A DNA stretch of 43,226 nucleotides, taken from IMG/VR virus record IMGVR_UViG_3300045988_173145; one strand, given 5' to 3'. Below are positions 20,878 through 35,286 of the stretch, piece after piece. The notes beneath the pieces were generated by a model. The model did not search any database and was not told where the DNA came from. It saw only the letters and a list, made by a program, of their open reading frames with translations. How positions within the stretch are numbered: position 1 is the first letter of the stretch; each line of letters begins with the position of its first letter. Made by a program: the position numbers and the translations under genes. Origin of the DNA: a virus.

Positions 20878-21867
20878 ATGGCAAACGTTACTGGGTACAC
20901 TAAGGCTGGCGTTGACAAGCTGGTCGACCCGCTATTCTCCTCGATCTCGCCTTTCACGGTCGGCGGCCACTATTATTCTCCGGTCACGTATTTCTGGCCT
21001 GATTTCTACAATGAGGGCCAGGCTGGAAAAGTCTCAAAGTGGGCCAAGACGCTGGCCTACGGGGATGCTCTCGGCTACGTGATCATGAATCGTTCCACGG
21101 GCGATTGGTCCGCCAAGGATAATGACTTTCTTACACAGGCGCAGCGCGCCCAGGCGGCCGGGGCGAAGAGGATTCTTTGGTACATTCCTACCCGCTATGG
21201 CGTCGCGTCACTCGCCAAGGATGACGCCGCTCGGAATGGTGTGCCGGACCCGGACAAATTCACGCGCGAATACATTATGCAGCTGTGCGCCAACCTGCGC
21301 TCCCAGTACGACGGTCTTTTCCAGGGAGTATTCTTGGACGAGGTAATCAACGGCTGGGGCGCACAGTCCGGCCGGGTCGGATGGTACGGAGACCTCATCG
21401 GCGAAATTCGACGCACCTACGGCAAGAATTTCACAATCGCCATTAACCCTGGCAGCAATATTACTGAGGCCGTGTGTGCGCTCGATTTCGACGTGTGCAT
21501 GAGTTTTGAGAATACTGCTGCCAAGTATTTGACGGATGACCCTAATAACCCGATTGCGAATGATGTGATGCGTGAGCAGCCTTCCACCGAGTGGTGGCAC
21601 GTTATTCATGGGGTTACGAAAGAGAATTTCCGGCAGGTAATCGATCGCGCCGCATCGTTCGGTGTCTCGCATTTGTATGTGACCGACGGTGAGCTGGTGC
21701 AGGGTGAGGGCGGCCAGTGGGTGCCCGAGAAGAATCCTTATCAGAATCCTCCGTCGGATTGGATCATGGAGCGCGTGGTCGCTTGGCATGGCGGCTATCT
21801 CGGTTTGGCTGAGCGTGTTGCCGCGCTGGAGGCGAAGGCAACTCCGCCCCCGCAGCCGGGCGCCTGA
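20878..21867 (+). CDS. Putative glycoside hydrolase / exopolysaccharide depolymerase (spherulation-specific family 4, GH135-like)
   Basis: The motif pattern YFWP ... YVIMNRSTG ... ILWYIPTRYG ... GVFLDEV ... HLYVTDG resembles spherulin-4/Sph3-type proteins. This is from memory and was not searched. Confidence 0.4.
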   Translation: MANVTGYTKAGVDKLVDPLFSSISPFTVGGHYYSPVTYFWPDFYNEGQAGKVSKWAKTLAYGDALGYVIMNRSTGDWSAKDNDFLTQAQRAQAAGAKRILWYIPTRYGVASLAKDDAARNGVPDPDKFTREYIMQLCANLRSQYDGLFQGVFLDEVINGWGAQSGRVGWYGDLIGEIRRTYGKNFTIAINPGSNITEAVCALDFDVCMSFENTAAKYLTDDPNNPIANDVMREQPSTEWWHVIHGVTKENFRQVIDRAASFGVSHLYVTDGELVQGEGGQWVPEKNPYQNPPSDWIMERVVAWHGGYLGLAERVAALEAKATPPPQPGA

Positions 21868-21887
21868 ATGTTTCACGTGAAACATTC
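21866..21887. repeat. 22-bp perfect palindrome GAATGTTTCACGTGAAACATTC
   Basis: Self-complementary by inspection. It overlaps the stop codon of 20878..21867 and the 5' arm of the adjacent terminator. Confidence 0.95.
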
Positions 21888-21924
21888 CCCCTCACCACGA
21901 TTTCTGTGGTGAGGGGGAATGTTT
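21880..21924. terminator. Bidirectional hairpin terminator at the first convergent junction
   Basis: aacattccccctcaccac (21881-21898) pairs with gtggtgagggggaatgtt (21906-21923), an 18-19 bp stem with a 7-nt loop. It lies between a plus-strand and a minus-strand gene end. Confidence 0.8.
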
Positions 21925-21943
21925 TCATGCCTGACGCAAGAGA

Positions 21944-22411
21944 CTATAGTCCCAAACGCTGATAGTCTCCTCCGTGCTCGCGAGCAATATCATCCAATAC
22001 TCCCATGAGATCAGAGCGCGCATCATCCTGAACAGTAATAGACGGCGAGTTCAGGATCGAGTGAATCGTATTGTTGATCTCCTTGAATTGACGAGCAGCA
22101 ATAGCATCGCATTTTACACTGTCCCATCGTCGTGCTAGACGGCGTGCAAGATCGGATGTATTCTCGCCGCTTGTTTCATGGGCGACGCCCACAGCGTTCA
22201 ATGACCAGTCCCAGATGATCCATTTACTGACAGCGCGTCCGTCGCCGTTTTCTACGGTGACGTCAATTCCACTACCCTTATAGGGGTTATGCCACTTCAG
22301 ATGAGCGACCATGCGTGCTTCGTCGATATCGCACACGTCGGGTTTAGGAAGCCACAATTGCGTGAAACTGATCTCGTGCTCGATCTCCAGCATTGGGTTA
22401 TTCGCTGTCAT
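21944..22411 (-). CDS. Hypothetical protein
   Basis: 155 aa with an ATGA overlap to the upstream gene. No motif recognised. Confidence 0.6.
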   Translation of the reverse strand: MTANNPMLEIEHEISFTQLWLPKPDVCDIDEARMVAHLKWHNPYKGSGIDVTVENGDGRAVSKWIIWDWSLNAVGVAHETSGENTSDLARRLARRWDSVKCDAIAARQFKEINNTIHSILNSPSITVQDDARSDLMGVLDDIAREHGGDYQRLGL

Positions 22412-22662
22412 GAGACGCTCCGCAAAAGTATGCTACAGCGCACCGCAGAATGCTTGGGGCCATCGGAGTCTTTGTGAGTCCATCCTGTTGACACGCCGCG
22501 CTTCGTCTTCACGAAAACACCATTATCGGTGATCTCGATCTTTCCCGGCAAGCACTCAACGGTAGTTACTTTGGTGTGGTCGGAAATGCGGGGAGAGGGG
22601 ATCATATCCTGCAATTCCGCAGCAATGGCCAACGCGATTTCCTGGCGATCAATCTTGCTCAT
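22408..22662 (-). CDS. Hypothetical protein
   Basis: 84 aa, tightly packed in the operon. Confidence 0.55.
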   Translation of the reverse strand: MSKIDRQEIALAIAAELQDMIPSPRISDHTKVTTVECLPGKIEITDNGVFVKTKRGVSTGWTHKDSDGPKHSAVRCSILLRSVS

Positions 22663-23180
22663 TATTCTACCTCCCGAGCGGACGGTGTGACACCGATCTG
22701 TCCCTGATAATGCGATCCCAGACCATTGGTGCCGTACGGCATACTGGCAGGCCTGTCCAGGTCTTCGAAAGCGATCTGCGCAATCCTATCCCCAGGGAAA
22801 AGGCGGGCGGCTTTAGTGGAGTGCAGGTTGGCGATCTCCAGGGTTACGTTTCCCTGAAATCCTGGATCAATGTATCCCGCGGACACGTGAACGAGAATTC
22901 CGCGGCGCGCCCACGATGACTTACCTTCCACCCTGGCCACTAGGTCGGCAGGCACGCTGACTTTCTCCTGCGTGGACGCGAGAATAAACTCCCCTGGCAG
23001 TAGCTCGTAACCATTCTCGTCAATGGTGACATTCTCGTCACCGTGACGATAGGTGATAATGTTTTCGTCCAGTCGCACTTCCACCGACGCCGGCTGAATA
23101 GACAACGTTTTGCGCCAGTCGGAAATGAGTTCGCCCCAATCGATTCTGCGTCGGAGAGTGAAATCACTCAGTGTAGCCAT
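22662..23180 (-). CDS. dcd: dCTP deaminase (Dcd/dUTPase superfamily)
   Basis: VPADLVARVEGKSSWARRGILVHVSAGYIDPGFQGNVTLEIANL matches the E. coli Dcd core [43 protein letters not shown]. Confidence 0.85.
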   Translation of the reverse strand: MATLSDFTLRRRIDWGELISDWRKTLSIQPASVEVRLDENIITYRHGDENVTIDENGYELLPGEFILASTQEKVSVPADLVARVEGKSSWARRGILVHVSAGYIDPGFQGNVTLEIANLHSTKAARLFPGDRIAQIAFEDLDRPASMPYGTNGLGSHYQGQIGVTPSAREVE

Positions 23181-23635
23181 TGTGGTAGTCCTTCGTCTTT
23201 GTTTTCCTCGATCACATGAACCGTGTAACCTTTATCGCATAGAATTGCTTTAGCTTCAAGAGCGAGAGCAGGCCTCTCTCCCGGGACGATTCCCACCGTG
23301 TCTCTACCGCGCTCCGACAGTACGATCGCGCAGACATACGCATCATCGTCCGACGAGTCGCTATACGTGAGCACATACCCGCCTATCTCATCCGAATATG
23401 TGCATCTAGTGAAAGTGATTCTTCCTTCTTGCCATGAACGCAAGGCAAGTGTTGTTCTCTGAATAAATTGAACGTTGTACATAAGCCCACGGATCGCGCC
23501 AGGCGGATCGAGAGAATAACTCCTGATAGTGAAGTTACAGTCGGTGGCATGCATAAACGCGGCCGCACCCCACAGTTCACCACATTTCGCCAAATCAACA
23601 AAAACAATATCAACAATATTCTCCACAACACTCAC
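23168..23635 (-). CDS. Hypothetical protein
   Basis: 155 aa with a GTGA-coupled start. Confidence 0.55.
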   Translation of the reverse strand: MSVVENIVDIVFVDLAKCGELWGAAAFMHATDCNFTIRSYSLDPPGAIRGLMYNVQFIQRTTLALRSWQEGRITFTRCTYSDEIGGYVLTYSDSSDDDAYVCAIVLSERGRDTVGIVPGERPALALEAKAILCDKGYTVHVIEENKDEGLPQWLH

Positions 23636-24627
23636 GCTTCCGGAATATAGTTATTGAGATGATCGTATGAAATGGCGGATATGAATTCTGTGAGCCGATC
23701 TCGAACTTCCCTAGCACGATCCTCTGGGGTGAGCTGCCTGTCAATGGTGTCCCAGTAGGCGTTTCGCAGAATTGCGATCACTGACTGGCTTCCATGCTTG
23801 GCGACGAGTTCGCGCAGATACCACGCCGCTTTCCCCATGTCAACATTCTCGTTGGCACCATTCTTGTGACCAGCCCTGAAAATATACTTCAGGGCACTCC
23901 CAGTCAGATAGTCTTTGTCGCGAATGAAAGTGATGGGCTCAGGATTGAGGGTCACATAGTGTGACGGGTGAGTCACCTCATTCTCATGCACATCATCCTC
24001 GATACATCCACCGTCCTTCTCTGTGATATAGAGAATGTCATCACACAAGGTCAACTCATGATGCCGCTCGTCGAAAGACGAGAATCTTTCTTCGCCATTT
24101 TCGGTCACATACCAAATGCACCATTCGCCAGTGAAATACCTACTCGCCCTCTTGATGGGCGCATAATAGCTGTCAGAAGTGCAAAGCGATACCGGATCGT
24201 TGACGAATTTCGTCTCATAGTCGGAATAAGCCTCATAAGGGCCGGTTTGCTGCCAATGCCAGCCGTCGTGCTTATGCTCCAAAGAGAAGCGACGACGACT
24301 CCAGCATGCTACTCGCCGTTTATTAGCAGAATTGCGGACGTGCACTTCCCAGAACCCGCAATGCGACACTACCTTAGAAACATACTCGTACATGCCGTCC
24401 GGGTAGAAAATCTTCTCGCACTCATCATCTACAGGCGACACAACATAATCTCCTTCCCCTGTCTGCGTGATCGAATACTCGTTGTACTTGAAATAGTGTC
24501 TCCGCTCTACACCGTCATGAATAGAATCGAAACTAATCCCCTTGTCGTCGCCGGTTTGCGCTATGATTCTCTCTTTACTACCGCCTGGCAAGTACAGCCA
24601 AACCTGTCTCAAAAACACCACGTCCAC
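23632..24627 (-). CDS. Hypothetical protein with a C-terminal DUF3310-like domain
   Basis: The C-terminus HPSHYVTLNPEPITFIRDKDYLTGSALKYIFRAGHKNGANENVDMGKAAWYLRELV resembles the DUF3310 pattern (HY...KY..R...K...KA.WYL). The GTG start lacks a clear RBS, so the start is uncertain. Confidence 0.55.
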   Translation of the reverse strand: MDVVFLRQVWLYLPGGSKERIIAQTGDDKGISFDSIHDGVERRHYFKYNEYSITQTGEGDYVVSPVDDECEKIFYPDGMYEYVSKVVSHCGFWEVHVRNSANKRRVACWSRRRFSLEHKHDGWHWQQTGPYEAYSDYETKFVNDPVSLCTSDSYYAPIKRASRYFTGEWCIWYVTENGEERFSSFDERHHELTLCDDILYITEKDGGCIEDDVHENEVTHPSHYVTLNPEPITFIRDKDYLTGSALKYIFRAGHKNGANENVDMGKAAWYLRELVAKHGSQSVIAILRNAYWDTIDRQLTPEDRAREVRDRLTEFISAISYDHLNNYIPEA

Positions 24628-24643
24628 GGTCGTTTACGCTATT

Positions 24644-24967
24644 TCAGTTGCCGAGAGTGCCAACCGTAGCGAAATAAGCGAAAAACACCTGAAGCCACCA
24701 AAAAGCACGCCACACCAATGACAGTCCAATAACACCAACAATGAGGGCGACTGCACCCATTGCCATACCCTCACCCGTGGACCGCGGCCTACGAAGCCAC
24801 GCCACGAAACGATTCGTGGGGCGCGGCGGCGCCATCACACTGAGCGGCACAGACAATGCGGGCGGCGCCGGGGCAGGCCGAGGCGGAGGCGGTGGTGCAG
24901 GTGCGCTAGCCGCGGGCGGAGGCGGCGCAGGAGTAGGAGCCGACGGGGCACTCGAAAAAGTAGACAT
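24644..24967 (-). CDS. Proline-rich membrane protein
   Basis: N-terminal P/A-rich segment (PTPAPPPPAASAPAPPPPPRPAPAPP), then two hydrophobic helices. RBS GAGGAA. Confidence 0.6.
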   Translation of the reverse strand: MSTFSSAPSAPTPAPPPPAASAPAPPPPPRPAPAPPALSVPLSVMAPPRPTNRFVAWLRRPRSTGEGMAMGAVALIVGVIGLSLVWRAFWWLQVFFAYFATVGTLGN

Positions 24968-24979
24968 AATAGTTGTTCC

Positions 24980-25168
24980 TCACTTTCCGTTCAGTTCTGC
25001 CATGAGACGGTTAGTCCAACCGTCGCTGTAGTTGAAGTTCGTGCGCTTAGTGCGGCGTGTGCTCTTGATTCTCTTCGCCCGATTCCTCTTGTGCTCCTGA
25101 AACTCGATCGTCTTGCGACGAACCTCGTCCTCGCGTCCATCAATGCGGCGGATTACCGGGTATTTCAT
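24980..25168 (-). CDS. Small basic protein
   Basis: ATG 25168 forms an ATGA overlap with the upstream stop. K/R-rich (HKRNRAKRIKSTRRTKR). Confidence 0.5.
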   Translation of the reverse strand: MKYPVIRRIDGREDEVRRKTIEFQEHKRNRAKRIKSTRRTKRTNFNYSDGWTNRLMAELNGK

Positions 25169-25560
25169 GATTTGACCCACTCGATCTGGTCGCCGAGAAG
25201 TCCGCGCAGATCATTAATCAGATTGTGTGCGTTCCCGAACTCCTCCTCGGCGATATCGAAAATACGGTAGACGTTTCCTTCAGTGCAGACCACGAGGAAG
25301 GAATCGTGGGCGCACTCGGAGAGGAAAACGTTGCGGACGTTTCCGATGAGGGCGGGCCGCTGAACGGGGATGGCCTGTACGAGGTCGGCCCCGGTGAGAA
25401 TTGCGACGGCGGTCACTCGCTCAACTGGGATGCCCCGGAACTCATTCTCGCCTTTCTCGTATCCTTTTGCGGGGAAGTGAATCTTGGTGCCCTTCAGGTT
25501 AGTGAAAACGGCGCCTCCTGTAGTTTTGCATGATCCGTATCCCGTGCGGCGGCGTGCCAT
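25165..25560 (-). CDS. Hypothetical protein
   Basis: 131 aa. RBS GAGGAGAGGATTATT ATG. Confidence 0.6.
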   Translation of the reverse strand: MARRRTGYGSCKTTGGAVFTNLKGTKIHFPAKGYEKGENEFRGIPVERVTAVAILTGADLVQAIPVQRPALIGNVRNVFLSECAHDSFLVVCTEGNVYRIFDIAEEEFGNAHNLINDLRGLLGDQIEWVKS

Positions 25561-26180: not shown

Positions 26181-27653
26181 ATGAAAGGCGGTGCAAAATT
26201 GGCAGATTCCGTCACAGAATATGCTGCGTCGGAAATGAAATATTGGTGCACCACAGGCGACTACGGGGGCACCGGATACGCCCAGGACAACCGCTGGACC
26301 TGCTACTGGAATTCCAATGATGCCGGCTGGAAAACTGGTCCCGGCGACATGGATTGCAGTAGCGGCGTAGCGGGCGCCTACAATGTTGCATTTCACAATG
26401 TTTGGGGAACCGGTTGGGATGATCCGATCATGTTCCCGCGGACCGGCGAAACGTGGACCGAAACTCTGAATTCTTTGGCCGCGAATCGCGGTTTCATGGA
26501 TATTGGGGACACGTGGTACGGGTCCACGCCGTCGGGAGGATTCCATGTCGGCGACATGGTCCTGAAGACCACTGGAGACGGTGGACATGTCGCAATGTGC
26601 GTGCGCGAAGATGACGGTTCATTCAACGCGGGTGATCCGCTTCTCGCTGAGGCGTGGATTAACGAGAATGGTGAAATCGCGGAAGGTCAGATGGGGGACC
26701 AGACCGGCTACGAAACGCACGTAGTCCGGTACAGTAGTCACCCGATGACTGTCGCGGCCTCGTGGTCCACGTGCATCCGTTTCGGAAAGCGGACCGATTC
26801 CGATAATGGGCACGAGTCCGCGGGTTCGTACCGCCTTTCTTCTATTCAGGAGGCTGTTCTCAGGGCCGCCGATGCAGAGAATTGCCCGTGGTGGGCTGCC
26901 CTGGCGTGCCTGTGGATGGAGACCGGCGAGCGCGGCGCTAACATTTACGGGCACGACGCCGGGGGCGCCGGCCCGCACGGCGAGGAAGTAACCGAGGAGA
27001 ATTTCCGCGAATTCCTTGCGGCAATTCGAGACGGCGAAAACTCGAACGGTGTCGGTCCGTTGCAGATTACGTATCCGGGCTATTTCTTTGATGACCCGGA
27101 TCGTGAATGGTGGATGCCGGAAAAGTCGGCTGAAGTCGGCTGCCGTATTCTTCGCGATCTTATTAACGCAGAAGGCGATTCCTATGAGGCTTTGAAGCGT
27201 GTCGGGTCGCGGTATAATTCAGGGAATCCGTATGACGCGTATGAGTCTTATGGGATTCTTTTCAGTAATCGTTGCAAGTCTTGGTATGATTATGGTCGCC
27301 CTTCTGGTGGCGCCGGAGAGGATTTTTGGGATATGAGTGAGGGCGTTGATCTGCTCAGGGAGATTCGCGATCTTTTCCGTAGTGGAAAGGCGGGCGATCA
27401 TTTCGCTGGCGACATGAACTGGTACGCCAAGGCCACCTATGAGGAGGTTAAGTCTATTCACGCGTCTGTGGATCAGATTCTGCATTCTGTGACTCCGGGT
27501 CAGGAGAACGTGCGTGAGGCGGGCGCGATTTATGGTGCCGTGAACGAAATTCGCAAGGCCGTGTCGACGCCGTCGTCTTTGCAGGCGCACGATGGTGTCG
27601 CAGAGTCTCCCACACCGGAGTCTCCTGCCCCGGCTCCGGAGCAGAATTCCTGA
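26181..27653 (+). CDS. Endolysin: N-terminal Cys-His peptidase (CHAP/NlpC-like) plus a lytic transglycosylase-like domain
   Basis: DCSSGVAG ... GDGGHVAMCV is the Cys/His pair. LWMETGERGANIYGHD ... GVGPLQITYPGYF is transglycosylase-like. Exact start is uncertain. Confidence 0.7.
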   Translation: MKGGAKLADSVTEYAASEMKYWCTTGDYGGTGYAQDNRWTCYWNSNDAGWKTGPGDMDCSSGVAGAYNVAFHNVWGTGWDDPIMFPRTGETWTETLNSLAANRGFMDIGDTWYGSTPSGGFHVGDMVLKTTGDGGHVAMCVREDDGSFNAGDPLLAEAWINENGEIAEGQMGDQTGYETHVVRYSSHPMTVAASWSTCIRFGKRTDSDNGHESAGSYRLSSIQEAVLRAADAENCPWWAALACLWMETGERGANIYGHDAGGAGPHGEEVTEENFREFLAAIRDGENSNGVGPLQITYPGYFFDDPDREWWMPEKSAEVGCRILRDLINAEGDSYEALKRVGSRYNSGNPYDAYESYGILFSNRCKSWYDYGRPSGGAGEDFWDMSEGVDLLREIRDLFRSGKAGDHFAGDMNWYAKATYEEVKSIHASVDQILHSVTPGQENVREAGAIYGAVNEIRKAVSTPSSLQAHDGVAESPTPESPAPAPEQNS

Positions 27654-27780
27654 CACAGAATATTGGTATTTATTGTGGCCTGTTCACTCACTATTATGCT
27701 GAGTGTCGTTCCACGATAGATGCGACATGCGGGGAGCTTCGCTCTCTTCCCTCCCCGTAGCCTCCTGTGGCAGTGGTAGA

Positions 27781-27830
27781 GCAAGTCTCCGGACGGTCAA
27801 TGAAAGATCGTCCGGAGACTTGCTTTTTGT
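27781..27830 (+). terminator. Intrinsic terminator after the endolysin gene
   Basis: gcaagtctccggacg (27781-27795) pairs with cgtccggagacttgc (27809-27823) and is followed by TTTTTGT. Confidence 0.8.
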
Positions 27831-27996
27831 GTGCTATACTTCCCTACGTACCGCTCATATTGGTTAATACACAAATATTTTCCTACGCGTTCCGACGGTG
27901 CAATAAGAGAATACTATCGCCCTCATGTTTTCCTACACACATTAACCCGACATGTTCTAGGAATCGGCGTGAGGGCGATAGTATACAATCCATCCA

Positions 27997-28227
27997 ATGA
28001 AAGTGAAAATTAGAGTGACTAAGTCGCTTTATGTTGCTACTATTTTTGCGGCCGTCATGGTGACGGCAAACACCGGGCTCATGGTGTATGAAGATTACAC
28101 CAACGGCACTATGAATGTGACTCGCGATTCTTTATGGTGTGTTGGTGCGATTATTCTTTGGGCCAGCGTGCGCACTGTCCGGTTCATGCGGACTGTCGGC
28201 TATCATCCGGGATTCCATAGAAAGTAA
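27997..28227 (+). CDS. Small two-TM membrane protein in a moron-like insert (holin, antiholin or exclusion candidate)
   Basis: 76 aa with two hydrophobic segments (LYVATIFAAVMVTANTGLMV, LWCVGAIILWASV). Bracketed by terminator hairpins in AT-richer DNA. No clear RBS. Confidence 0.45.
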   Translation: MKVKIRVTKSLYVATIFAAVMVTANTGLMVYEDYTNGTMNVTRDSLWCVGAIILWASVRTVRFMRTVGYHPGFHRK

Positions 28228-28234
28228 CTAAAAC

Positions 28235-28281
28235 ATAACATTCCCCGCCTAGCAATGATGACGTTAGGCGGGGAATGTTAT
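28235..28281 (+). terminator. 17-bp perfect hairpin with AACATTCCCC / GGGGAATGTT arms
   Basis: ataacattccccgccta (28235-28251) pairs with taggcggggaatgttat (28265-28281), with a 13-nt loop. Confidence 0.65.
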
Positions 28282-28337
28282 ATAATTCCTATTGCAGCCC
28301 TGCAACAGCAATCACGATAGAGGACATTAGATATACG

Positions 28338-28706
28338 ATGCTCAATTTCCTGAACGATGTCCTCTCCGACGCCACCCTAGTAGCCCTAGCCGCCCTCACT
28401 GGCACAATATTCTCGAACGTTACGCAACGCAAAAACGCGAGAGACCAGGAACAAATCTCAATCCTGGACATTACCGTCCGCTCTCTTTCCGAGAGAGTGA
28501 CTGCCCTGGAGGCCAGTCTTGCGGCCGCCGAAAGAGCTGCAGACCTGGCAGAGGACGGCCGCCGTCGGGCTGAAGTGAAGTGGTGGGAGGCCGTTTCTTT
28601 TGCGCATACCGTTCTCGATTGGGGTAGGTCCCTGAAAATTCTGATACCATCTGATAAAGAGGACTCAATCCCTACTGAGCCTCAAATTCCGGATTCCATG
28701 AGGTGA
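28338..28706 (+). CDS. Membrane-anchored coiled-coil protein of the lysis cassette
   Basis: ATG 28338 is chosen downstream of the hairpin. N-terminal TM segment (ATLVALAALTGTIF), then a coiled coil (VRSLSERVTALEASLAAAERAADLAEDGRRRAE). Confidence 0.55.
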   Translation: MLNFLNDVLSDATLVALAALTGTIFSNVTQRKNARDQEQISILDITVRSLSERVTALEASLAAAERAADLAEDGRRRAEVKWWEAVSFAHTVLDWGRSLKILIPSDKEDSIPTEPQIPDSMR

Positions 28707-28715
28707 TTCATAAAT

Positions 28716-28952
28716 ATGTTTACTCCTGAGGTCCGCAAGGCCCTTTATGCCCTGCTCACCGCTGTTCTCGGTGTTTTCGCCGCTTTCAATGTTATTTCCG
28801 CCGATCAGGCGTCTCAGTACGCTGACGCTGCTACCCAGATTGTTGGTGCTCTGACTCTGGCGCTGGCCACGTATCACACTCGCCCCGGCGCGGCCGCTGG
28901 CCGTCACGTCGCCGGTGAGGGTGAGGCTGCCAACGAGGACAAGGTCGCCTGA
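28716..28952 (+). CDS. Holin-like two-TM protein
   Basis: 78 aa with TM segments ALYALLTAVLGVFAAFNVI and AATQIVGALTLALATY and a charged C-terminus. It is the last gene of the lysis cassette. Confidence 0.55.
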   Translation: MFTPEVRKALYALLTAVLGVFAAFNVISADQASQYADAATQIVGALTLALATYHTRPGAAAGRHVAGEGEAANEDKVA

Positions 28953-28966: not shown

Positions 28967-29014
28967 AAACATTACTGCCCCCTACCGGATAGTCGGCAGG
29001 GGGCAGTAATGTTT
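28967..29014. terminator. Bidirectional hairpin terminator at the second convergent junction
   Basis: aaacattactgccccct (28967-28983) pairs with agggggcagtaatgttt (28998-29014), a 17-bp perfect stem. Confidence 0.8.
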
Positions 29015-29025
29015 CACGTGAAACA
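29010..29025. repeat. 16-bp perfect palindrome TGTTTCACGTGAAACA (copy 2)
   Basis: Self-complementary. It overlaps the 3' arm of the 28967-29014 hairpin. Confidence 0.95.
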
Positions 29026-29032: not shown

Positions 29033-29050
29033 ATGTTTCACGTGAAACAT
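29033..29050. repeat. 18-bp perfect palindrome ATGTTTCACGTGAAACAT (copy 3)
   Basis: Self-complementary. It lies 8 nt after copy 2 and abuts the stop of the RuvC-like gene. Confidence 0.95.
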
Positions 29051-29536
29051 TCATCTCCGTTCCACGTCGTCTCCGATGATGCGGGCGATCACGTTCTCGT
29101 CGTGGCGTTTAGTGACTGCCCACAGGAAAAGATGGCGTCCCGCGTCACGTGCGTCGTCCGCATCGGGCTGACCCACGTCAGTTCCTGTAGGCCAAAAATT
29201 GAGAGACTTCAAAACATGGTCTGGCATGGTAGTTTTTGCCATTGCGGGAGTCTGCCATACGATGTCCCCGATCTCCCATTCCAGTACGGAGTTGATTTTT
29301 ACTGGGGTGAGGTCTGCGAGAAAATTGTTGCTAGGTCGAAGATCGAACTGCTCGCACACGACAATATCTGGGGCGAATTCGTTTCGTGTGGCCAGAATGT
29401 CATAGACGCTGGCCGTCCAATGCTCATACTTGAATTGTTGGACGTGGATGATTGAGAATTCGCGGTCGTCGTGGAAGTCTCCGATGACGATTCCTGTTGA
29501 TTTGCCGGGGTCGACGGCCATTACCCGCTGCATCAC
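29051..29536 (-). CDS. RuvC-like Holliday junction resolvase
   Basis: VMAVDPGKSTGIV (first catalytic Asp), VVCEQF (Glu) and PDADDARDAGRH (C-terminal Asp pair) give a RuvC-fold pattern. Confidence 0.7.
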   Translation of the reverse strand: MMQRVMAVDPGKSTGIVIGDFHDDREFSIIHVQQFKYEHWTASVYDILATRNEFAPDIVVCEQFDLRPSNNFLADLTPVKINSVLEWEIGDIVWQTPAMAKTTMPDHVLKSLNFWPTGTDVGQPDADDARDAGRHLFLWAVTKRHDENVIARIIGDDVERR

Positions 29537-30582
29537 GCCTTTCCGCCTTTCTTCCGCAGATTACGTCGCGACTTGTTCACGGTAGCAATATTTTTCACCA
29601 TGTCCGAACGCACTCCGTCTACCTTGAGCCACAGCGTATCCGGCGCCATCGGCTTACCGCGACCCTTTTTCAGAGTCCACGGCGTGTCCGGGTCGTCCGG
29701 GAAAGGCAGATTCTTATAACACCATATCGCACAATCCTGCGGGGAATCGAAATGGAAGTCCTCTTTTGGAATGTATCTTTTCAGGTCATAAATGCGTCGC
29801 ATGAGTGAAGGGGTGAGCCATTTCGGTAGTTCCTTGTACATGCGAAGCGATGAGCTAGTGCACGGGCAATTCACAGGTTCGCCGCCGCTGAAACGCGAGA
29901 CACGAATCCACTTCGCTTCCCCGCAATTCACGCAACGCATATGAAAATACTTATGGTGATCACTCATGAATCTGTACTCAGGGGACGTGACTTCCCACTG
30001 TCGAAAGCGGCGTCCCACCATTTCCGGCTCCTCCCCGGTCAAGTTTTTGTTCACCGGCTTGACCGGATGGAGAATGCGGCGTTCGCGACCTTTCTTTCTT
30101 GTCTTGGTGCGTATGATAGAGATTTCACCGGGGCGAAATACCCCGTTCTCGGTCGCGAATTCCCATTCGAATACAACCGATGGGTTGAATTCTTTGTAGC
30201 ACCATTCGATAGCTGACGTCATGCCGTCGAACTCGAAATTGTCTACACCGTTCTCCTCTCGCCATGCCCAAATATTGAGGCGAATGTCGTTGTAGGAGCG
30301 GCTCGGCATGAGCGTCTCGTTTGCTTTGCGATGGTAGCGCAAATACGGCATATCCGGTGTGTGATCCAATGCCACGTCGAGGTTGCATGGGGCGATCGGC
30401 TTGGTAATGTCAGGGCGCACGAAACGCCACTTCTTGTCCTCGGGGACCTCCAAGTAGGTGAAGCACCATTCCAGGGCGTCATCCACGGACGGGAAAAGGA
30501 ACTCCCCGCTGGGGACGCTTGTTTGAAGTCGTTCCAGCCTGTTAGCGGCTAGCCTGTACAGTTTGTATGATGGTTGCATCAT
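29533..30582 (-). CDS. Hypothetical protein with three internal repeats and a zinc-ribbon-like CxxC...CPC motif
   Basis: Repeats FPSVDDALEWCFTYL, FDGMTSAIEWCYKEF and FDSPQDCAIWCYKNL, plus CVNCGEAKWIRVSRFSGGEPVNCPC. Start ATG 30582 follows GAGAAGAGAGAAAAC. Confidence 0.6.
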   Translation of the reverse strand: MMQPSYKLYRLAANRLERLQTSVPSGEFLFPSVDDALEWCFTYLEVPEDKKWRFVRPDITKPIAPCNLDVALDHTPDMPYLRYHRKANETLMPSRSYNDIRLNIWAWREENGVDNFEFDGMTSAIEWCYKEFNPSVVFEWEFATENGVFRPGEISIIRTKTRKKGRERRILHPVKPVNKNLTGEEPEMVGRRFRQWEVTSPEYRFMSDHHKYFHMRCVNCGEAKWIRVSRFSGGEPVNCPCTSSSLRMYKELPKWLTPSLMRRIYDLKRYIPKEDFHFDSPQDCAIWCYKNLPFPDDPDTPWTLKKGRGKPMAPDTLWLKVDGVRSDMVKNIATVNKSRRNLRKKGGKA

Positions 30583-30610
30583 TCGTGTTTTCTCTCTTCT
30601 CTTATTTGGT

Positions 30611-30650
30611 TGAATAGCGGGGGCAACACTCACGTTGCCCCCGCTATTCA
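30611..30650 (-). terminator. 17-bp perfect GC-rich hairpin between two early genes (no U-tract)
   Basis: tgaatagcgggggcaac (30611-30627) pairs with gttgcccccgctattca (30634-30650), with a 6-nt loop. Confidence 0.5.
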
Positions 30651-30669
30651 AATCATGCGACCATGTGTG

Positions 30670-31260
30670 TCAGAAAACTACCGGTGATGAGGTCGCAGTA
30701 TTCTTCTTGGCCTCGAAATCAATGGAAGAAATCTCTGCTCTCGGAGGCCAGAAAGCGGGCTTCGGGGCGCCGTCCTCACCGAGGACCGTGACACCGTTCT
30801 CGTCCTGCTCGTATGCGGGGCGACCGTAATCGTCCAAACGGGGGCGCGGCTTGCTCATCCTTGTCACCAATGTTGCGTGAGCGCCCTCCAAATTCTCGCA
30901 CACGCGTTTCACGGTAGTATCGATCTTCTGCGGCGAGAGAAGATCGGCCCGCTCCCTCGCATCGGCCGGCCACAGACCAGCGGCACTGAAATACTTCGGA
31001 ATATTGAAGTGGATAAAAGTCTTTCCATTCTTGTTGATAGTGAAGACAGTGCGGTCGGTGAGGGCCTTTCCGGCGTCCTCGTCGTCGCCGTCGATCATCC
31101 AATCGGTGACAAGCATAGGCCGCCCATTCTTGGACGTAGTCATTTCGGCTTTAGTGATGAATGCTGAGTGCTTTCCGGGCTTGGGCGGCTCGAAATTGCC
31201 ACCGCCGGTAGCGACTTCCAGGGATGAGAGGTCGGTGCCGAAGTTGAAGCCAGTTGCCAT
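30670..31260 (-). CDS. DUF669-like protein (putative ssDNA-binding partner of Sak4)
   Basis: MATGFNFGTDLSSLEVATGGGNFEPPKPGKHSAFITKAEMTTSKNGRPML fits the DUF669 N-terminal pattern and lies next to the Sak4-like ATPase. ATG 31260 follows AGGAG. Confidence 0.55.
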   Translation of the reverse strand: MATGFNFGTDLSSLEVATGGGNFEPPKPGKHSAFITKAEMTTSKNGRPMLVTDWMIDGDDEDAGKALTDRTVFTINKNGKTFIHFNIPKYFSAAGLWPADARERADLLSPQKIDTTVKRVCENLEGAHATLVTRMSKPRPRLDDYGRPAYEQDENGVTVLGEDGAPKPAFWPPRAEISSIDFEAKKNTATSSPVVF

Positions 31261-31303
31261 AATTATTGTGCTCCTATGAGATGGTGGTAAAGAATTGCGG
31301 CGG

Positions 31304-31417
31304 TCAGTTCTCGCCGTCGGTGGGCTTGCTGCGGAGTGCTTCCCTGACAGCGTCGGCGGCGATAGCGAGAGTCTCGGCGGAGACGCCACGGTCAGCGGTA
31401 ACAGTAATCTTAGCCAT
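31304..31417 (-). CDS. Possible 37-aa micro-protein
   Basis: MAKITVTADRGVSAETLAIAADAVREALRSKPTDGEN is preceded by GGAAGAGAGAAAAC and fills the gap between the Sak4 and DUF669 genes. It is below the ORF-track size cutoff. Confidence 0.35.
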   Translation of the reverse strand: MAKITVTADRGVSAETLAIAADAVREALRSKPTDGEN

Positions 31418-31447
31418 AATAGTTTTCTCTCTTCCTATGTGTTTTGG

Positions 31448-32200
31448 TTAGTGGCTAGTGATGTAATTGTGAATCTTGGTCATGCTCGGATTCCCCATTG
31501 CTGGCGGGAACCCGCGCGTCTGTTGCTTTGTCACAACGTTCGGTTTGCGAGTGTACAGTACTGGCACGGTGATTTCTTCTCCGTCTCCATTGTCCACGTT
31601 CGCCCATTCCATGTAGCCGACGAAATTGAACAGGGCGGGGATGCGCTGTCCAGATTTTTGCCCTTCAAAGGATGGGGCAATGAAGACTTCCCCAGTGACC
31701 TCGCTGCTCTCGCGTGCGGAATGCGTGATAGCAATGAATGAAATGTCGGGGGCGTCCAGGAATACGCTGATCGCCTTCAACAGGGAGTCGTATACTGCCC
31801 GCCATTTCGTCCACGTATCATTCGACACAGTCTCATAATGAGAGAGGATGAGTTCCTGACACTTATCCAACGTGTCGAACACTACTGTCTTGTAGGGGAA
31901 TTCTGCAAGATTGCGTGCAATATTGTCGCAAAGATTGGCGCAATCAACCCACTTGTCGCAATGTACGACAGTAATGTTTGCAGGGTTCCCCCAATCCCGT
32001 ACTGGGAGTGTGCCGGATTCGAAATCAACGTACAGGACGGGCGACATATCGTCCACCTGTGATGCTGTGGCTGCGAGCGAAGTTTTACCAACGCCGCTCA
32101 CACCATGAATAAGCATGTTGAAATGGTTATTCTGCTCCGGGTTTACGACCGTCATTCCAAGACGGGCAAGAGTGTCCTCGAAAGTCATGATATGTTTCAC
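31448..32200 (-). CDS. Sak4-like RecA-family AAA ATPase
   Basis: Walker A MLIHGVSGVGKTSLA and Walker B-like VVFDTLD. The alternative ATG at 32188 is better spaced from AGGAGG than GTG 32200. Confidence 0.7.
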   Translation of the reverse strand: MKHIMTFEDTLARLGMTVVNPEQNNHFNMLIHGVSGVGKTSLAATASQVDDMSPVLYVDFESGTLPVRDWGNPANITVVHCDKWVDCANLCDNIARNLAEFPYKTVVFDTLDKCQELILSHYETVSNDTWTKWRAVYDSLLKAISVFLDAPDISFIAITHSARESSEVTGEVFIAPSFEGQKSGQRIPALFNFVGYMEWANVDNGDGEEITVPVLYTRKPNVVTKQQTRGFPPAMGNPSMTKIHNYITSH

Positions 32201-32203
32201 CTC

Positions 32204-32953
32204 CTAACCGTTCATATTGTAGTTTTTGAATGCTTCCGTGTGGCGCTCATGCGAGCAGTACCAACATAAAGGAGACGATTGGAGGTTGTCAACCCTACCG
32301 TCATGTGACCTCGCTCTCTCCCAAATGTTTTGGAGTCTCCCTATGGCCGCGAGCGCAACGTCCTGCCGCCACGGAAAAGAAAACTCGCAAATACTGTCCG
32401 GCACAACCTCTACACTGCAGTCCCTTGGGAGGGCAACAATGGAACAGTGGGCCACGTCGTAGCCGAGTTGCGTGAGACCATACCCGTATAGCATGATCTG
32501 AATATAGTATTTACGAAACTGACTCCCCGCCGCCGTATCAGCGAATCGCGGTAGACCATCATCCCATTTAACACTTTTCCGGAATGCGGAAATCTTTTTC
32601 CGTGAGAGCAGCTTCCAGTCTAGGACCGTCGCCGCCGCAATATCGAAACGATCCACACTCCCAGAAATACGCCCATAGTCTTCAAGATCGCATACATCTA
32701 CTCTCTGCTCCACTAGAACGTTCGGTTCGTTTTTTGTGCGTGATTCCGCGTAGGCGTGAAATGCGGTGCCCAGGAACGGTGCCAGCGGCGTGCCCGCATT
32801 TTCCGTATCGTGCGGGATGTCGAGGAGTTTGTCAGCGATACACCGTTCGCAATCGTCTCCGATTTCGCTTACGCCGATACGTGTTTGTTTGTCGCGTTCG
32901 GTTGGGGCGAAAACATTACTGATCGCTGTTGCGGCGGCCGGGCTCAAATTCAA
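32204..32953 (-). CDS. PD-(D/E)XK (Cas4/RecB-like) exonuclease
   Basis: N-terminal GDDCERC, GSVDRFDIAAATVLDWKL (D...D-x-K) and a C-terminal Cys cluster SSPLCWYCSHERH. The TTG start at 32953 after AGGAAGGAGAG is inferred; the ORF is open up to 33091. Confidence 0.6.
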   Translation of the reverse strand: MNLSPAAATAISNVFAPTERDKQTRIGVSEIGDDCERCIADKLLDIPHDTENAGTPLAPFLGTAFHAYAESRTKNEPNVLVEQRVDVCDLEDYGRISGSVDRFDIAAATVLDWKLLSRKKISAFRKSVKWDDGLPRFADTAAGSQFRKYYIQIMLYGYGLTQLGYDVAHCSIVALPRDCSVEVVPDSICEFSFPWRQDVALAAIGRLQNIWERARSHDGRVDNLQSSPLCWYCSHERHTEAFKNYNMNG

Positions 32954-33182
32954 ATTTCTCTCCTTCCTGAATTGCGGCGATAGCGGCGAGCCTGACGTCA
33001 CGGTGAACCTCAATGTCTCCGCTCGCGATATCTTCAATGAAGAATAGTCTTGCGTCGCCGGCCGGCATGATTTCGTAGACCGTACCGTCAATCTCTTCGG
33101 CGCGCATTGCGGCTTGTTCGAGATTCGAGTAGACCCGGTAGTCGCCTTTCTGCGACGATTCCCATACTAGATAGACGCCCAT
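32916..33182 (-). CDS. Hypothetical protein
   Basis: 88 aa. RBS AAGGAAGAGAGAG upstream of ATG 33182. Confidence 0.55.
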   Translation of the reverse strand: MGVYLVWESSQKGDYRVYSNLEQAAMRAEEIDGTVYEIMPAGDARLFFIEDIASGDIEVHRDVRLAAIAAIQEGEKFEFEPGRRNSDQ

Positions 33183-33228
33183 TAGTGTTTTTGCTCTCTC
33201 TTCCTTAAGTGTTGATTAATGGTGTGTG

Positions 33229-33447
33229 TTATTCGATAATGGTTGCTGTGAGGCCGGCTCGCTCCTCGATTGCCGTGGAAATGACGGCCGCATAGCATTG
33301 GATCCGCCAGATGTTCTCCGATCGAATGTTGGGTACGTGTAGTTGCATTGTTTTGACGCCGAACTGTGTTGGCCATTTCAGGATGATTGTGCGGCCGGCG
33401 ATTTCGTCAATCGTGGTGGCCTGTGTGATGCGCATAATGTTTTTCAC
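33229..33447 (-). CDS. Hypothetical protein
   Basis: 72 aa. Start is GTG 33447 (GTGA overlap) or ATG 33435, downstream of AGAGGAGAGG. Confidence 0.5.
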   Translation of the reverse strand: MKNIMRITQATTIDEIAGRTIILKWPTQFGVKTMQLHVPNIRSENIWRIQCYAAVISTAIEERAGLTATIIE

Positions 33448-35155: not shown

Positions 35156-35216
35156 TGAAGTTCGTCCAAACGACTACTAGTAGGCAAATGGTGAGCATGA
35201 ACACGAGGCATGTCAT
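35148..35216 (-). CDS. Possible 22-aa hydrophobic micro-peptide
   Basis: MTCLVFMLTICLLVVVWTNFND is preceded by GGAAAGGAAAGAG. Its stop overlaps the first codons of the SNF2 gene. Confidence 0.25.
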   Translation of the reverse strand: MTCLVFMLTICLLVVVWTNFND

Positions 35217-35240
35217 CTGCTCTTTCCTTTCCGGTATGAG

Positions 35241-35276: not shown

Positions 35277-35286
35277 ATCGTGACGG

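What the first reader, a model, noticed from the sequence alone, without database searches (positions are those of the whole stretch)
21866..21924. AATGTTTCACGTGAAACATT palindrome family marks both convergent-transcription junctions
A 22-bp perfect palindrome GAATGTTTCACGTGAAACATTC (21866-21887) overlaps the stop of the last tail gene. It shares its AAACATT arm with the adjacent 18-19-bp terminator hairpin (21880-21924).

The mirror arrangement occurs at the other convergence point: hairpin 28967-29014 (AAACATT...AATGTTT), then TGTTTCACGTGAAACA (29010-29025) and ATGTTTCACGTGAAACAT (29033-29050). A third hairpin (28235-28281) also uses AACATTCCCC/GGGGAATGTT arms.

Three copies of a 16-nt or longer perfect palindrome in 43 kb cannot be chance. 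Because one arm is shared, palindrome and terminator are mutually exclusive structures, so protein binding to the CACGTG-centred palindrome could modulate termination or read-through between oppositely oriented modules. The motif may also be borrowed from the host genome; I have a vague recollection of MFHVKH pseudo-ORFs in some actinobacterial annotations, which I have not verified.
Basis: partly seen in the sequence, partly recalled or inferred. Interest (0 to 1): 0.65.

Follow-up and report, generated by a model that had tools for sequence, protein, structure and literature searches.

The report
Host centromere (parS) sites in phage
The repeated palindrome is a letter-perfect copy of parS, the site bacteria use to grip and segregate their own chromosome, and this human-mouth phage carries three copies but no partition or integration genes, so it probably borrows the host's segregation machinery as Bacillus phage phi29 does.

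Summary
TGTTTCACGTGAAACA occurs perfectly at 21869-84, 29010-25 and 29034-49; no shuffle reached three matches. It is the consensus chromosomal parS, the loading site of host ParB/Spo0J.

- **The genome.** The window is a roughly 43.2-kb circularly assembled siphovirus from human oral metagenomes. Its host is probably in the Actinomycetaceae. About 60 ORFs showed no ParA, ParB, integrase or repressor.
- **Conservation.** Thirty-five full-length relatives, 88-89% identical in DNA, keep 2-4 sites at the same two junctions. parS columns are 99% identical. The spacer between sites, the hairpin loop and third codon positions are 49-73% identical.
- **Temperate kin.** Phages sharing the virion module have an integrase and repressor after the lysis cassette and no parS.
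- **Positive control.** An IMG/VR scan for the 16-mer recovered phi29-like phages, the published case of phage-borne host parS.

Best reading: host ParB loads on the phage DNA and couples the unintegrated genome to host segregation. Binding and function are inferred, not shown.

The hairpins are separate bidirectional terminators.

This is a new member of a known kind.

The parts
21869..21884 (.). parS-1: perfect consensus ParB-binding site. The extended 22-bp palindrome is 21866-21887. It sits 1 nt after the stop codon of the last tail gene.
   Evidence: Present in all 35 full-length relatives with at most 1 mismatch. Column identity 0.99.
21880..21924 (.). J1 bidirectional intrinsic terminator hairpin: 19-bp perfect stem, 7-nt loop. 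Its outer AAACATT/AATGTTT pairs overlap the right half of parS-1.
   Evidence: -41.2 kcal/mol on the + strand and -39.2 on the - strand, z-scores -8.0 and -6.6. In 31 relatives 97.6% of cells are paired and 3 of 19 pairs show double changes. Forty distinct sequences all fold at -34 to -44 kcal/mol.
21917..21935 (.). Decayed remnant of a second J1 parS (GAATGTTTTCATG...). The intact site is present here in relatives L015, L027 and L042, giving a parS-hairpin-parS arrangement.
28235..28281 (.). Third hairpin with AACATTCCCC/GGGGAATGTT arms. It lies within the lysis block, upstream of gene 28275-28706. There is no parS beside it, here or in relatives.
   Evidence: (-32.9 kcal/mol). No parS with 2 or fewer mismatches nearby in relatives.
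28967..29014 (.). J2 bidirectional terminator hairpin, 15 nt after the holin stop codon. Its 3' end (TGTTT) is the start of parS-2.
29010..29025 (.). parS-2: perfect consensus site.
   Evidence: Conserved in most relatives, carries 1 mismatch in a few, and is deleted in L021 and L041.
29034..29049 (.). parS-3: perfect consensus site, 1 nt before the stop codon (29051-29053) of the - strand RuvC-like gene. The 8-nt spacer to parS-2 is hypervariable in relatives.
   Evidence: parS-3 columns 0.993 identity, spacer 0.49.
20878..21867 (+). Last tail gene (Spherulin4-like domain), the end of the late + strand operon that runs into J1.
21944..25560 (-). Block on the - strand converging on J1. It contains unknown ORFs, a dCTP-deaminase/dUTPase-like gene (22662-23180) and a DUF3310 protein (23632-24627).
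26181..28952 (+). Lysis block converging on J2: endolysin 26181-27653 and holin 28716-28952.
29051..41918 (-). Early/replication block on the - strand converging on J2: RuvC-like, DUF669/SSB-like, AAA_24, exonuclease, SNF2 helicase, primase-like and DUF3987 primase-helicase genes. No ParA, ParB, integrase or repressor was detected.

Best explanation
The three palindromes are bona fide chromosomal-type parS centromere sites carried by a phage that has no partition genes of its own.

**Proposed mechanism**
1. After injection and circularisation, the host's ParB (a CTP-dependent clamp) loads at the sites at about 21.9 kb and 29.0 kb and forms a partition complex on the phage DNA.
2. Host ParA, and possibly ParB partners such as SMC or polar tethers, then position that complex like a chromosomal origin region.
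3. Unintegrated phage genomes are therefore retained and handed to both daughter cells whenever lysis is delayed, for example in a carrier state, pseudolysogeny or slow-growing plaque biofilm.

This is the strategy published for the virulent Bacillus phage phi29. It carries five host parS sites and uses Spo0J to get its genome into the forespore. Here the same strategy appears in a siphovirus of a non-sporulating oral actinobacterium.

The adjacent hairpins are ordinary bidirectional intrinsic terminators. The overlap with parS is anatomical. The AAACATT/AATGTTT ends of parS extend the stem and supply the U-rich tail. The convergent junctions are among the few non-coding slots in this genome.

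**Shown:** identity to the consensus, non-randomness, strong purifying selection across a diverged clade, absence of phage par and integration genes, and the phi29 precedent.

**Inferred:** ParB binding, and the segregation or persistence benefit.
For: 1. **Identity.** All three sites match the consensus 16 of 16. Every literature hit for the core sequence is a ParB/parS paper. The consensus table covers Firmicutes, Actinobacteria and Proteobacteria.
2. **Selection.** Thirty-five full-length relatives are only 87.6-89.5% identical to the window over 21 kb, yet 30 have 3 sites, 3 have 4 and 2 have 2, allowing at most 1 mismatch. Mean pairwise identity is 0.99 in parS-1 and parS-3 columns. It is 0.49 in the spacer between sites, 0.50 in the hairpin loop, 0.72 in the spacer after the hairpin and 0.73 at third codon positions.
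3. **No phage-encoded partner.** Pfam and PHROGs scans of about 60 ORFs found no ParB, ParA, integrase or repressor. PDB sequence searches of three unknown proteins were empty.
4. **Contrast with kin.** Phages sharing the virion module (major tail 74-77% amino-acid identity, tail proteins 58-71%) carry a tyrosine integrase and an HTH repressor directly after the lysis cassette. They have no parS. In the window, the paired J2 parS sites occupy the slot directly after the lysis cassette. Cluster A mycobacteriophages show the same positional swap, with parABS in place of the integration cassette (PMC7157519).
5. **Precedent and positive control.** Phi29 has five host parS sites used with Spo0J (PMC2731898). 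A blind IMG/VR scan for the 16-mer recovered phi29-like podoviruses with 2-4 perfect sites.
6. **Sufficiency in principle.** Chromosomal par systems together with a single parS stabilise otherwise unstable plasmids (PMC7022226).
Against: - No binding or segregation data exist.
- The host is not identified to species. Its ParB and parS were therefore not checked. Actinomycetaceae is inferred only from endolysin and major-tail homologues.
- No repressor or other evidence of a quiescent state was found, so the phage is predicted to be virulent, and a strictly lytic phage gains little from partition.
- No isolate-genome assembly carrying the phage as an episome was found.
- At both junctions the parS sites lie on the transcribed side of a terminator, so active transcription would tend to strip ParB.
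- The contrast with temperate kin rests on a single evolutionary event.
Confidence: 0.6

Rival explanations
1. Host ParB is recruited, but for a purpose in the lytic cycle rather than for inheritance. Options: replicating phage genomes (3 sites each) titrate ParB away from the host origin and disturb host segregation or division; ParB loads SMC to compact and resolve phage DNA; or a ParB coat or condensate shields or localises the phage DNA.
For: The sequence evidence is the same as for the best explanation. The phage looks virulent, with no integrase or repressor. ParB is known to load SMC and to interact with division and polar proteins (PMC7022226).
Against: No known phage precedent exists for these uses, and the one characterised case (phi29) is about inheritance. 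Nothing in the sequence separates these variants from partition. Only 3 sites are maintained, with no amplification into a large decoy array.
Confidence: 0.2
2. The palindromes are regulatory elements of the two convergent terminators. A bound protein, host ParB or another factor, acts as a roadblock or pause site that sets termination or read-through between opposed modules.
For: All sites abut terminator hairpins at the two convergent junctions. For transcripts arriving from the opposite operon, the parS half-site AAUGUUUCAC is the U-rich tail. A protein bound there would meet RNA polymerase exactly at the release point (read from the sequence).
Against: The RNA-level competition is negligible: -8.8 against -41 kcal/mol. 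The hairpins persist where the adjacent parS has decayed or been deleted. The third hairpin, with the same arms, has no parS. A terminator accessory would not need a 16/16 match to the host centromere in every copy. In phi29-like phages the same 16-mer sits between co-directional genes or inside ORFs.
Confidence: 0.1
3. The sites are operators for a phage-encoded DNA-binding protein of unrecognised family that shares, or has converged on, the parS specificity. The host ParB is then irrelevant or a competitor.
For: Many ORFs have no detectable family. Examples are 29533-30651 (372 aa), 39881-40795 (304 aa), 41331-41918 (195 aa) and 21944-22411 (155 aa).
Against: ParB N-terminal and HTH domains are normally easy to detect, and none was found in about 60 ORFs. 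An exact, invariant match to the host consensus, including the outer T/A positions, is what mimicry of the host site predicts. An independent operator would not be expected to match so exactly.
Confidence: 0.07
4. There is no function. The palindromes are captured host DNA, or by-products of palindrome extension around the terminator hairpins.
For: The parS-hairpin-parS units are long composite palindromes. The hairpin loop is found in both orientations among relatives (GATTTCT and AGAAATC), which suggests recombination within the palindrome.
Against: Sites at two loci 7 kb apart are maintained perfectly in genomes that differ at about 11% of positions, while adjacent non-coding bases drift to about 50% identity. 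A chance origin is excluded.
Confidence: 0.03

Closest known systems
Host parS (Spo0J-binding) sites in Bacillus phage phi29 (Meijer et al. 2005, as described in PMC2731898)
   Same: A phage classed as lytic, with no ParA or ParB of its own, carries several copies of the host's chromosomal parS consensus. Phi29 has five and this phage three. The host centromere protein handles the phage genome. The 16-mer scan also picked up uncultivated phi29-like phages.
   Different: Phi29 is a small protein-primed podovirus of a spore-former, and its documented benefit is entrapment in the forespore, working with Spo0A boxes. This is a 43-kb siphovirus of a probable Actinomycetaceae host that does not sporulate. 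The sites are fused to bidirectional terminators at the two convergent junctions, and no partner regulator sites are known.
Chromosomal ParABS centromeres (parS near oriC; ParB-CTP clamp; Lin and Grossman type plasmid stabilisation)
   Same: The 16-bp sequence is identical. The sites are clustered, 3 within 7.2 kb. Chromosomal par systems together with one parS can stabilise an unstable plasmid (PMC7022226).
   Different: The sites are on a virus rather than beside oriC and parAB. The replicon supplies only the cis element.
Actinobacteriophage parABS cassettes (RedRock and other cluster A mycobacteriophages; PMC7157519)
   Same: These are actinobacterial siphoviruses that lack an integrase and persist extrachromosomally. 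The partition element sits where relatives carry the integration cassette, downstream of the structural and lysis genes (compare).
   Different: Those phages encode their own ParA and ParB. Their parS-L and parS-R loci are arrays of a phage-specific 8-bp repeat. They also have a repressor and a defined prophage replication origin. None of these was found here.
Centromere mimicry by parasitic mobile elements (SGI1 hijacking the IncC plasmid parABS; PMC10954446)
   Same: A mobile element carries only parS copies and exploits ParAB encoded by another replicon (title and abstract).
   Different: SGI1 targets a helper plasmid's system, not the chromosome's. It is an integrative island, not a phage.
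Bidirectional intrinsic terminators at convergent phage operons (for example TD1 of phi29)
   Same: GC-rich perfect stems of 17-21 bp with A-rich 5' and U-rich 3' flanks lie between convergent genes. They fold strongly on both strands.
   Different: Here the flanks are halves of a ParB site.

Membership tests
Chromosomal-type parS (ParB/Spo0J binding site) | 16-bp inverted repeat matching tGTTNCACGTGAAACa | tested here: met
   Three 16/16 matches. Consensus taken from PMC7022226 Table 1.
Chromosomal-type parS (ParB/Spo0J binding site) | Under selection as a unit: conserved in relatives beyond its surroundings | tested here: met
   Identity 0.99 in parS columns against 0.49-0.73 in the flanks, across a clade about 11% diverged.
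Chromosomal-type parS (ParB/Spo0J binding site) | Specific binding and CTP-dependent loading of the cognate ParB | not testable with these tools
   Needs EMSA, BLI or ChIP-seq with the host ParB.
Chromosomal-type parS (ParB/Spo0J binding site) | A cognate ParB with this specificity is present in the cell | not tested
   The host is only inferred (Actinomycetaceae). The consensus is shared by the characterised Actinobacteria.
Phi29-type host-parS hijack by a phage | Phage lacks its own ParA and ParB | tested here: met
   No ParBc, ParA/CbiA or related hit in about 60 ORFs with Pfam and PHROGs.
Phi29-type host-parS hijack by a phage | Multiple copies of the host consensus parS on the phage genome | tested here: met
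   Three copies in the window and 2-4 in relatives.
Phi29-type host-parS hijack by a phage | Spo0J-dependent segregation of the phage genome into the forespore, coupled to Spo0A repression | not testable with these tools
   The probable host family does not sporulate (own knowledge), so this outcome probably does not apply. Any analogous outcome at vegetative division is untested.
Actinobacteriophage parABS cassette (RedRock type) | Phage-encoded parA and parB genes | tested here: not met
   None found (same calls as above).
Actinobacteriophage parABS cassette (RedRock type) | parS loci made of arrays of a phage-specific 8-bp direct repeat flanking parAB | tested here: not met
   The sites are single 16-bp host-consensus palindromes. 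RedRock description from PMC7157519.
Actinobacteriophage parABS cassette (RedRock type) | Occupies the position of the integration cassette of close relatives | tested here: inconclusive
   The J2 sites lie directly after the lysis cassette, where structural-module relatives carry the integrase. The rest of the genome is not colinear with those relatives.
Bidirectional intrinsic terminator | Stable GC-rich stem-loop with a U-rich 3' flank on both strands, between convergent genes | tested here: met
   Folding energy -39 to -60 kcal/mol, z-scores -6.6 to -10.6. The U-tracts are short (AAUGUUU).
Bidirectional intrinsic terminator | Structure conserved through compensatory change | tested here: inconclusive
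   97.6% of cells are paired against about 50% when the partner is slid. Only 3 of 19 pairs show double changes and 10 never vary.
Bidirectional intrinsic terminator | Transcript 3' ends map to the hairpins | not testable with these tools

The most novel reading that the evidence does not exclude
The phage may mimic a mini-chromosome.

- The clade combines host centromeres (parS) with a clade-specific array of 5-9 co-oriented DnaA-box-like 9-mers. These are TGTGGAAAA or TGTGGATAA, the reverse complements of TTTTCCACA and TTATCCACA, at 2175-2302.
- The array sits next to a 10-bp-phased, AT-rich TGATCA repeat block.
- The clade has lost the integrase and repressor that its structural kin carry.
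- If host DnaA fires this array and host ParABS partitions the product, this very common human oral phage would persist as a plasmid-like episome using only borrowed host cis-sites. That would be a third lifestyle, distinct from integration and from phage-encoded parABS.
- Capture of host parS would then be a recurrent phage strategy. It was seen here in at least three unrelated lineages: this clade, phi29-like phages, and phages with a small terminase, large terminase and SU10-type portal that carry five-site arrays.
Probability: 0.2. Interest if true: 0.85.

Novelty: new member of a known kind. Interest (0 to 1): 0.6.

Why it matters
Phage-borne copies of the host centromere have been characterised experimentally only for phi29, where they serve spore entrapment.

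- **A case outside sporulation.** This clade is abundant in human oral metagenomes, with hundreds of near-identical protein records. Its host is a non-sporulating actinobacterium. The finding suggests that hijacking host ParB is a general route to persistence for phages that look virulent by gene content.
- **Relevance to annotation.** Lifestyle predictors score only integrase, parA and parB genes. They would miss a persistence strategy that relies on a cis-site alone.
- **Relevance to ecology.** Carrier states and pseudolysogeny are poorly understood in biofilms such as dental plaque.
- **A testable handle.** Three 16-bp sites can be scrambled without touching any gene.

Tried and rejected
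- **Megablast** of 18-32 kb against the INPHARED phage collection found nothing. Endolysin tblastn against phages gave only two weak gut-virus hits.
- **Host identification from isolate genomes.** The single-sequence endolysin scan found nothing. The profile scan found only distant cellular homologues, best Actinomyces israelii at 60%. Cluster look-ups gave no organism names. A host at species level is therefore not established.
- **Rothia as host**, suggested by terminase similarity to Rothia phage Spartoi (49%) and by the 55% GC. This was demoted, because the endolysin and major-tail homologues point to Actinomyces.
- **Hidden ParB, ParA or repressor among the unknown ORFs.** PDB sequence searches of the 372-, 304- and 195-aa proteins were empty.
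- **Enrichment of parS half-sites** (as in Pseudomonas aeruginosa) was not seen. There are 2 extra GTTTCACG against about 2.4 expected.
- **Search for a ParB gene next to parS in the IMG/VR hits.** Only 1 of 119 loci matched. This is a weak test and I draw no conclusion from it.
- **Literature searches** for host parS in actinophages or other siphoviruses found no report.
- **The more distant 34-35 kb phage group** with a related endolysin (GC 66-68%) has no parS within 2-3 mismatches in the stretch fetched.
- **Strong covariation in the hairpins**, assumed at first, turned out modest on counting.
Full report
**1. The observation**

- TGTTTCACGTGAAACA occurs exactly three times: 21869-21884, 29010-29025 and 29034-29049.
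- No further site appears even with three mismatches allowed.
- Dinucleotide shuffles give 0.25 matches on average, and none of 100 reaches three.
- The 22-bp palindrome 21866-21887 overlaps the last two bases of the stop codon of the last tail gene (20878-21867).
- Two strong hairpins, 21880-21924 and 28967-29014, each share 5-7 nt with a neighbouring palindrome.
- A third hairpin, 28235-28281, has the same AACATT/AATGTT outer arms. That arm pattern occurs 3 times against 0.06 expected.
- Both loci are true convergence points of transcription units.

**2. What the motif is**

A full-text search for the core TTTCACGTGAAA returned only ParB/parS papers. The table of chromosomal partition systems in PMC7022226 lists these consensus sequences:

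| Organism | parS consensus |
|---|---|
| Bacillus subtilis, Corynebacterium glutamicum | TGTTNCACGTGAAACA |
| Mycobacterium smegmatis | GTTTCACGTGAAAC |
| Hyphomonas neptunium | TGTTTCACGTGAAACA |

The three sites are therefore perfect copies of the near-universal bacterial centromere, the loading site of ParB/Spo0J. The mechanical ORF 29009-29455 starts that way.

**3. The genome around it**

The window is a circularly assembled phage genome. Bases 1-55 repeat at 43172-43226.

| Region | Strand | Content |
|---|---|---|
| up to 21867 | + | HNH endonuclease, terminase, portal, capsid, tape measure, tail genes |
| 21944-25560 | - | dCTP-deaminase/dUTPase-like gene, DUF3310 protein, unknown ORFs |
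| 26181-28952 | + | lysis block (endolysin, holin) |
| 29051-41918 | - | early/replication block: RuvC-like, SSB-like, AAA_24, exonuclease, SNF2 helicase, primase-helicase |
| 41928-42597 | + | two small genes |

This layout rests.

- Pfam and PHROGs scans of about 60 ORFs found no ParB, ParA, integrase, recombinase or repressor.
- PDB sequence searches of three larger unknown proteins were empty.
- The only cis-element of a partition system present is parS itself.

**4. Relatives**

- A protein-seeded scan of IMG/VR found 43 close relatives of 42-43 kb with endolysin identity of 96-100%. Records of the same phage come from human oral metagenomes.
- Over the 21-kb stretch spanning both junctions, the 35 full-length loci are only 87.6-89.5% identical to the window.
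- Allowing at most one mismatch, 30 of them have three parS sites, three have four and two have two. The sites are always at the same two junctions.

| Alignment columns | Mean pairwise identity |
|---|---|
| parS-1 and parS-3 | 0.99 |
| 8-nt spacer between the J2 sites | 0.49 |
| J1 hairpin loop | 0.50 |
| spacer after the J1 hairpin | 0.72 |
| third codon positions of the tail gene | 0.73 |

- Three genomes carry an intact second parS just after the J1 hairpin, giving parS-hairpin-parS. The window keeps only a decayed remnant there (GAATGTTTTCATG).
- Two genomes lack one J2 site.
- Selection therefore acts on the 16-mers themselves. The hairpins and the parS sites can be gained or lost independently.

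**5. The hairpins**

- As RNA, the J1 region folds at -41.2 kcal/mol on the + strand and -39.2 on the - strand. The J2 region folds at -52.7 and -59.8. All are far beyond shuffled controls.
- The parS palindrome alone is worth -8.8 kcal/mol. The minimum-energy structures simply draw the shared AAACAUU into the long stem.
- Forty distinct J1 sequences from relatives all fold at -34 to -44 kcal/mol.
- On a 31-sequence alignment, 97.6% of cells are paired, against about 50% when the partner column is slid.
- Covariation is modest. Three of 19 pairs show double changes, one of them in the AACATT/AATGTT arm, and ten pairs never vary.
- These are bidirectional intrinsic terminators. The parS half-site AAUGUUU doubles as their U-rich tail.
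- The proposed switch between a palindrome structure and a terminator structure has no energetic basis. ParB also acts on duplex DNA, not on RNA.

**6. Host and evolutionary context**

- The terminase is closest to those of Arthrobacter, Rothia and Propionibacterium phages, at 46-49%.
- A profile of the endolysin family finds its best cellular homologue in Actinomyces israelii, at 60%.
- The named cellular homologues of the major tail protein are from Actinomyces bowdenii and Actinomyces sp. 432, at 53-55%.
- The host is therefore probably an oral member of the Actinomycetaceae. This is an inference. The clade's 55% GC is lower than that of its kin.
- Phages sharing the virion module have 62-70% GC. 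Their major tail protein is 74-77% identical and their tail proteins 58-71%.
- Those phages carry a tyrosine integrase and an HTH repressor directly after the lysis cassette, and they have no parS.
- In the window, the slot directly after the lysis cassette holds the terminator and the paired parS sites.
- The pattern recalls cluster A mycobacteriophages, where about 20% replace the integration cassette with a parABS system at the colinear position (PMC7157519). The difference is that here only the host-type cis-site is present.

**7. Precedent and positive control**

- Phi29, classed as lytic, has five parS sites for host Spo0J. Published evidence indicates that it exploits the host segregation machinery to trap its genome in the spore (PMC2731898).
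- Among the multi-copy loci sampled, L170, L078, L129 and L139 are phi29-like podoviruses. They have the Phi29 capsid protein, and between them the tail knob gp9, the Gp16 packaging ATPase and a protein-primed type B polymerase.
- The method therefore recovers the known case.
- Two other loci, L086 and L125, are a different kind of phage with an Sf6-like small terminase (L086), a large terminase and an SU10-type portal (L125). They have five perfect sites within about 1 kb of non-coding DNA.
- Host parS on phage genomes thus seems recurrent.
- I found no report of it for actinobacterial phages or siphoviruses in the searchable library.

**8. Mechanism**

The best-supported reading has three steps.
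1. Host ParB loads at the three sites.
2. It builds a partition complex on the unintegrated phage genome.
3. Host ParA, and possibly SMC or polar tethers, position and segregate that complex. Phage DNA is then retained in both daughter cells when lysis is deferred.

- Chromosomal par systems together with a single parS are known to stabilise unstable plasmids (PMC7022226).
- A parasitic element that carries only parS in order to exploit another replicon's ParAB is also known (SGI1 and IncC plasmids, PMC10954446).
- I rate 'these are functional ParB sites' at about 0.85-0.9.
- I rate 'the benefit is inheritance or persistence' at about 0.5. The combined statement gets 0.6.
- Weaknesses: no binding data, host ParB and parS not checked, no repressor or other sign of a quiescent state, and the sites are transcribed before the terminators.
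- Rivals are ParB recruitment for a lytic-cycle purpose (0.2), a roadblock role in termination (0.1), an unrecognised phage-encoded binder (0.07) and no function (0.03).

**9. Verdict**

- Its proposed mechanism is not supported.
- The feature is a new member of a known kind, phage-borne host centromeres, in a new phage type, host phylum and habitat.
- Interest is moderate to high, because only the phi29 case has been studied, and this one cannot be about spores.

**10. In passing**

- The first 2.6 kb of the window is oddly composed: T 11%, A 36.5%, C 30.6% on the + strand. This is conserved across the clade.
- In the GC-rich relatives that share the virion module, where an integrase was seen on the contigs long enough to show it, the HNH gene directly abuts the small and large terminase genes, so this region is absent.
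- The region holds a 10-bp-phased TGATCA repeat block (1656-1790), twin 17-mers (2004-2039) and seven co-oriented TGTGGA(A/T)AA 9-mers at 2175-2302. The 9-mers are the reverse complement of the DnaA-box consensus. Eight occur in the whole window against 0.42 expected.
- The 9-mer array is conserved at 5-9 copies in the clade.
- About a third of the clade's IMG/VR contigs end inside or next to the array. It may therefore be a packaging site, or merely an assembly breakpoint, rather than an origin.
- If the 9-mers are DnaA boxes, the phage mimics both the origin and the centromere of its host.

Noticed in passing
window 1-2600: The + strand is extremely T-poor and A/C-rich (A 36.5%, C 30.6%, G 21.5%, T 11.4%; AT skew +0.54). 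The region lies between the HNH endonuclease gene (322-753) and the conserved core of the large terminase (about 2630). The same composition is seen in 10 relatives. In the related GC-rich phages that share the virion module, the HNH gene directly abuts the small and large terminase genes, so this is a clade-specific insertion of about 1.9 kb. Its function is unknown.
   Followed up: partly
window 2175-2302 (plus one copy at 36551-36559 on the - strand): Seven co-oriented copies of TGTGGAAAA or TGTGGATAA lie here, mostly in pairs 12 bp apart. They are the reverse complements of the DnaA-box sequences TTTTCCACA and TTATCCACA. Eight occur in the window against 0.42 expected. The array is conserved at 5-9 copies in all clade members examined and is absent from the related GC-rich phages that share the virion module. 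Many IMG/VR contigs of the clade end within or beside it. It could be a DnaA-box cluster, a terminase (cos/pac) recognition array, or just an assembly breakpoint.
   Followed up: partly
window 1656-1790: A block of 10-bp-phased repeats rich in TGATCA (ATGATGATCAATCATGATCAATG...) has at least 7 registers. It is AT-rich and resembles iterons or an unwinding element.
   Followed up: no
window 2004-2039; 188-251 and 868-931: Two identical 17-mers, AAGGGATCCCTTAAACG, lie 19 bp apart and each contains a palindrome. Separately, a 64-nt direct repeat (78% identical, with a perfect 33-nt core ACGTGCGTGCTCGCAAGGCTGCGCGCGCACTAC) flanks the HNH gene.
   Followed up: no
window 1-55 and 43172-43226: The two ends of the window are identical over 55 nt. 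The record is therefore a circular or terminally redundant assembly with about 43,171 unique bases.
   Followed up: yes
window 21899-21905, and the same position in L003, L007, L008, L009, L012 and others: The loop of the J1 terminator occurs in two mutually reverse-complementary forms among relatives (GATTTCT and AGAAATC). This is expected if the centre of the long palindrome flips by recombination between its arms.
   Followed up: partly
L086:2657-3444 and L125:10535-11462 (IMG/VR 3300037189_030872 and 3300032247_000416): A different phage lineage has five perfect consensus parS sites within about 1 kb of mostly non-coding DNA next to the large terminase gene. In L086 the sites lie between the small and large terminase genes. 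The lineage has an Sf6-like small terminase (L086), a large terminase and an SU10-type portal (L125), with GC 50-54%. No ParB was seen in the stretches fetched.
   Followed up: partly
L170, L071, L085, L078, L129, L139: Uncultivated phi29-like podoviruses, several from the same IMG/VR dataset (3300045988) as most of the window's relatives, have GC 37-54% and carry 2-4 perfect consensus parS sites. Some sites are in tandem pairs 26-34 bp apart and some lie inside ORFs. This extends the phi29 parS case beyond Bacillus isolates.
   Followed up: partly
window 29009-29455 (+): A spurious 148-aa ORF begins at the ATG inside parS-2 and reads MFHVKHGGMFHVKH.
   Followed up: yes
window 20878-21867: The last tail gene has a Spherulin4-like domain (PF12138, E = 3.5e-14). 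It is possibly a glycan-degrading tail enzyme. It is absent from the related integrase-carrying phages, whose equivalent slot holds a protein with a CBM_5_12 domain.
   Followed up: no
window 41331-42597: Back-to-back divergent genes, 41331-41918 (-) and 41928-42185 (+), are only 9 bp apart. They are followed by 42247-42597 (+) and a terminator-like palindrome at about 42620-42650. None has a detectable family. This is the place where a cryptic lysis-lysogeny-type switch would be expected if one exists.
   Followed up: no
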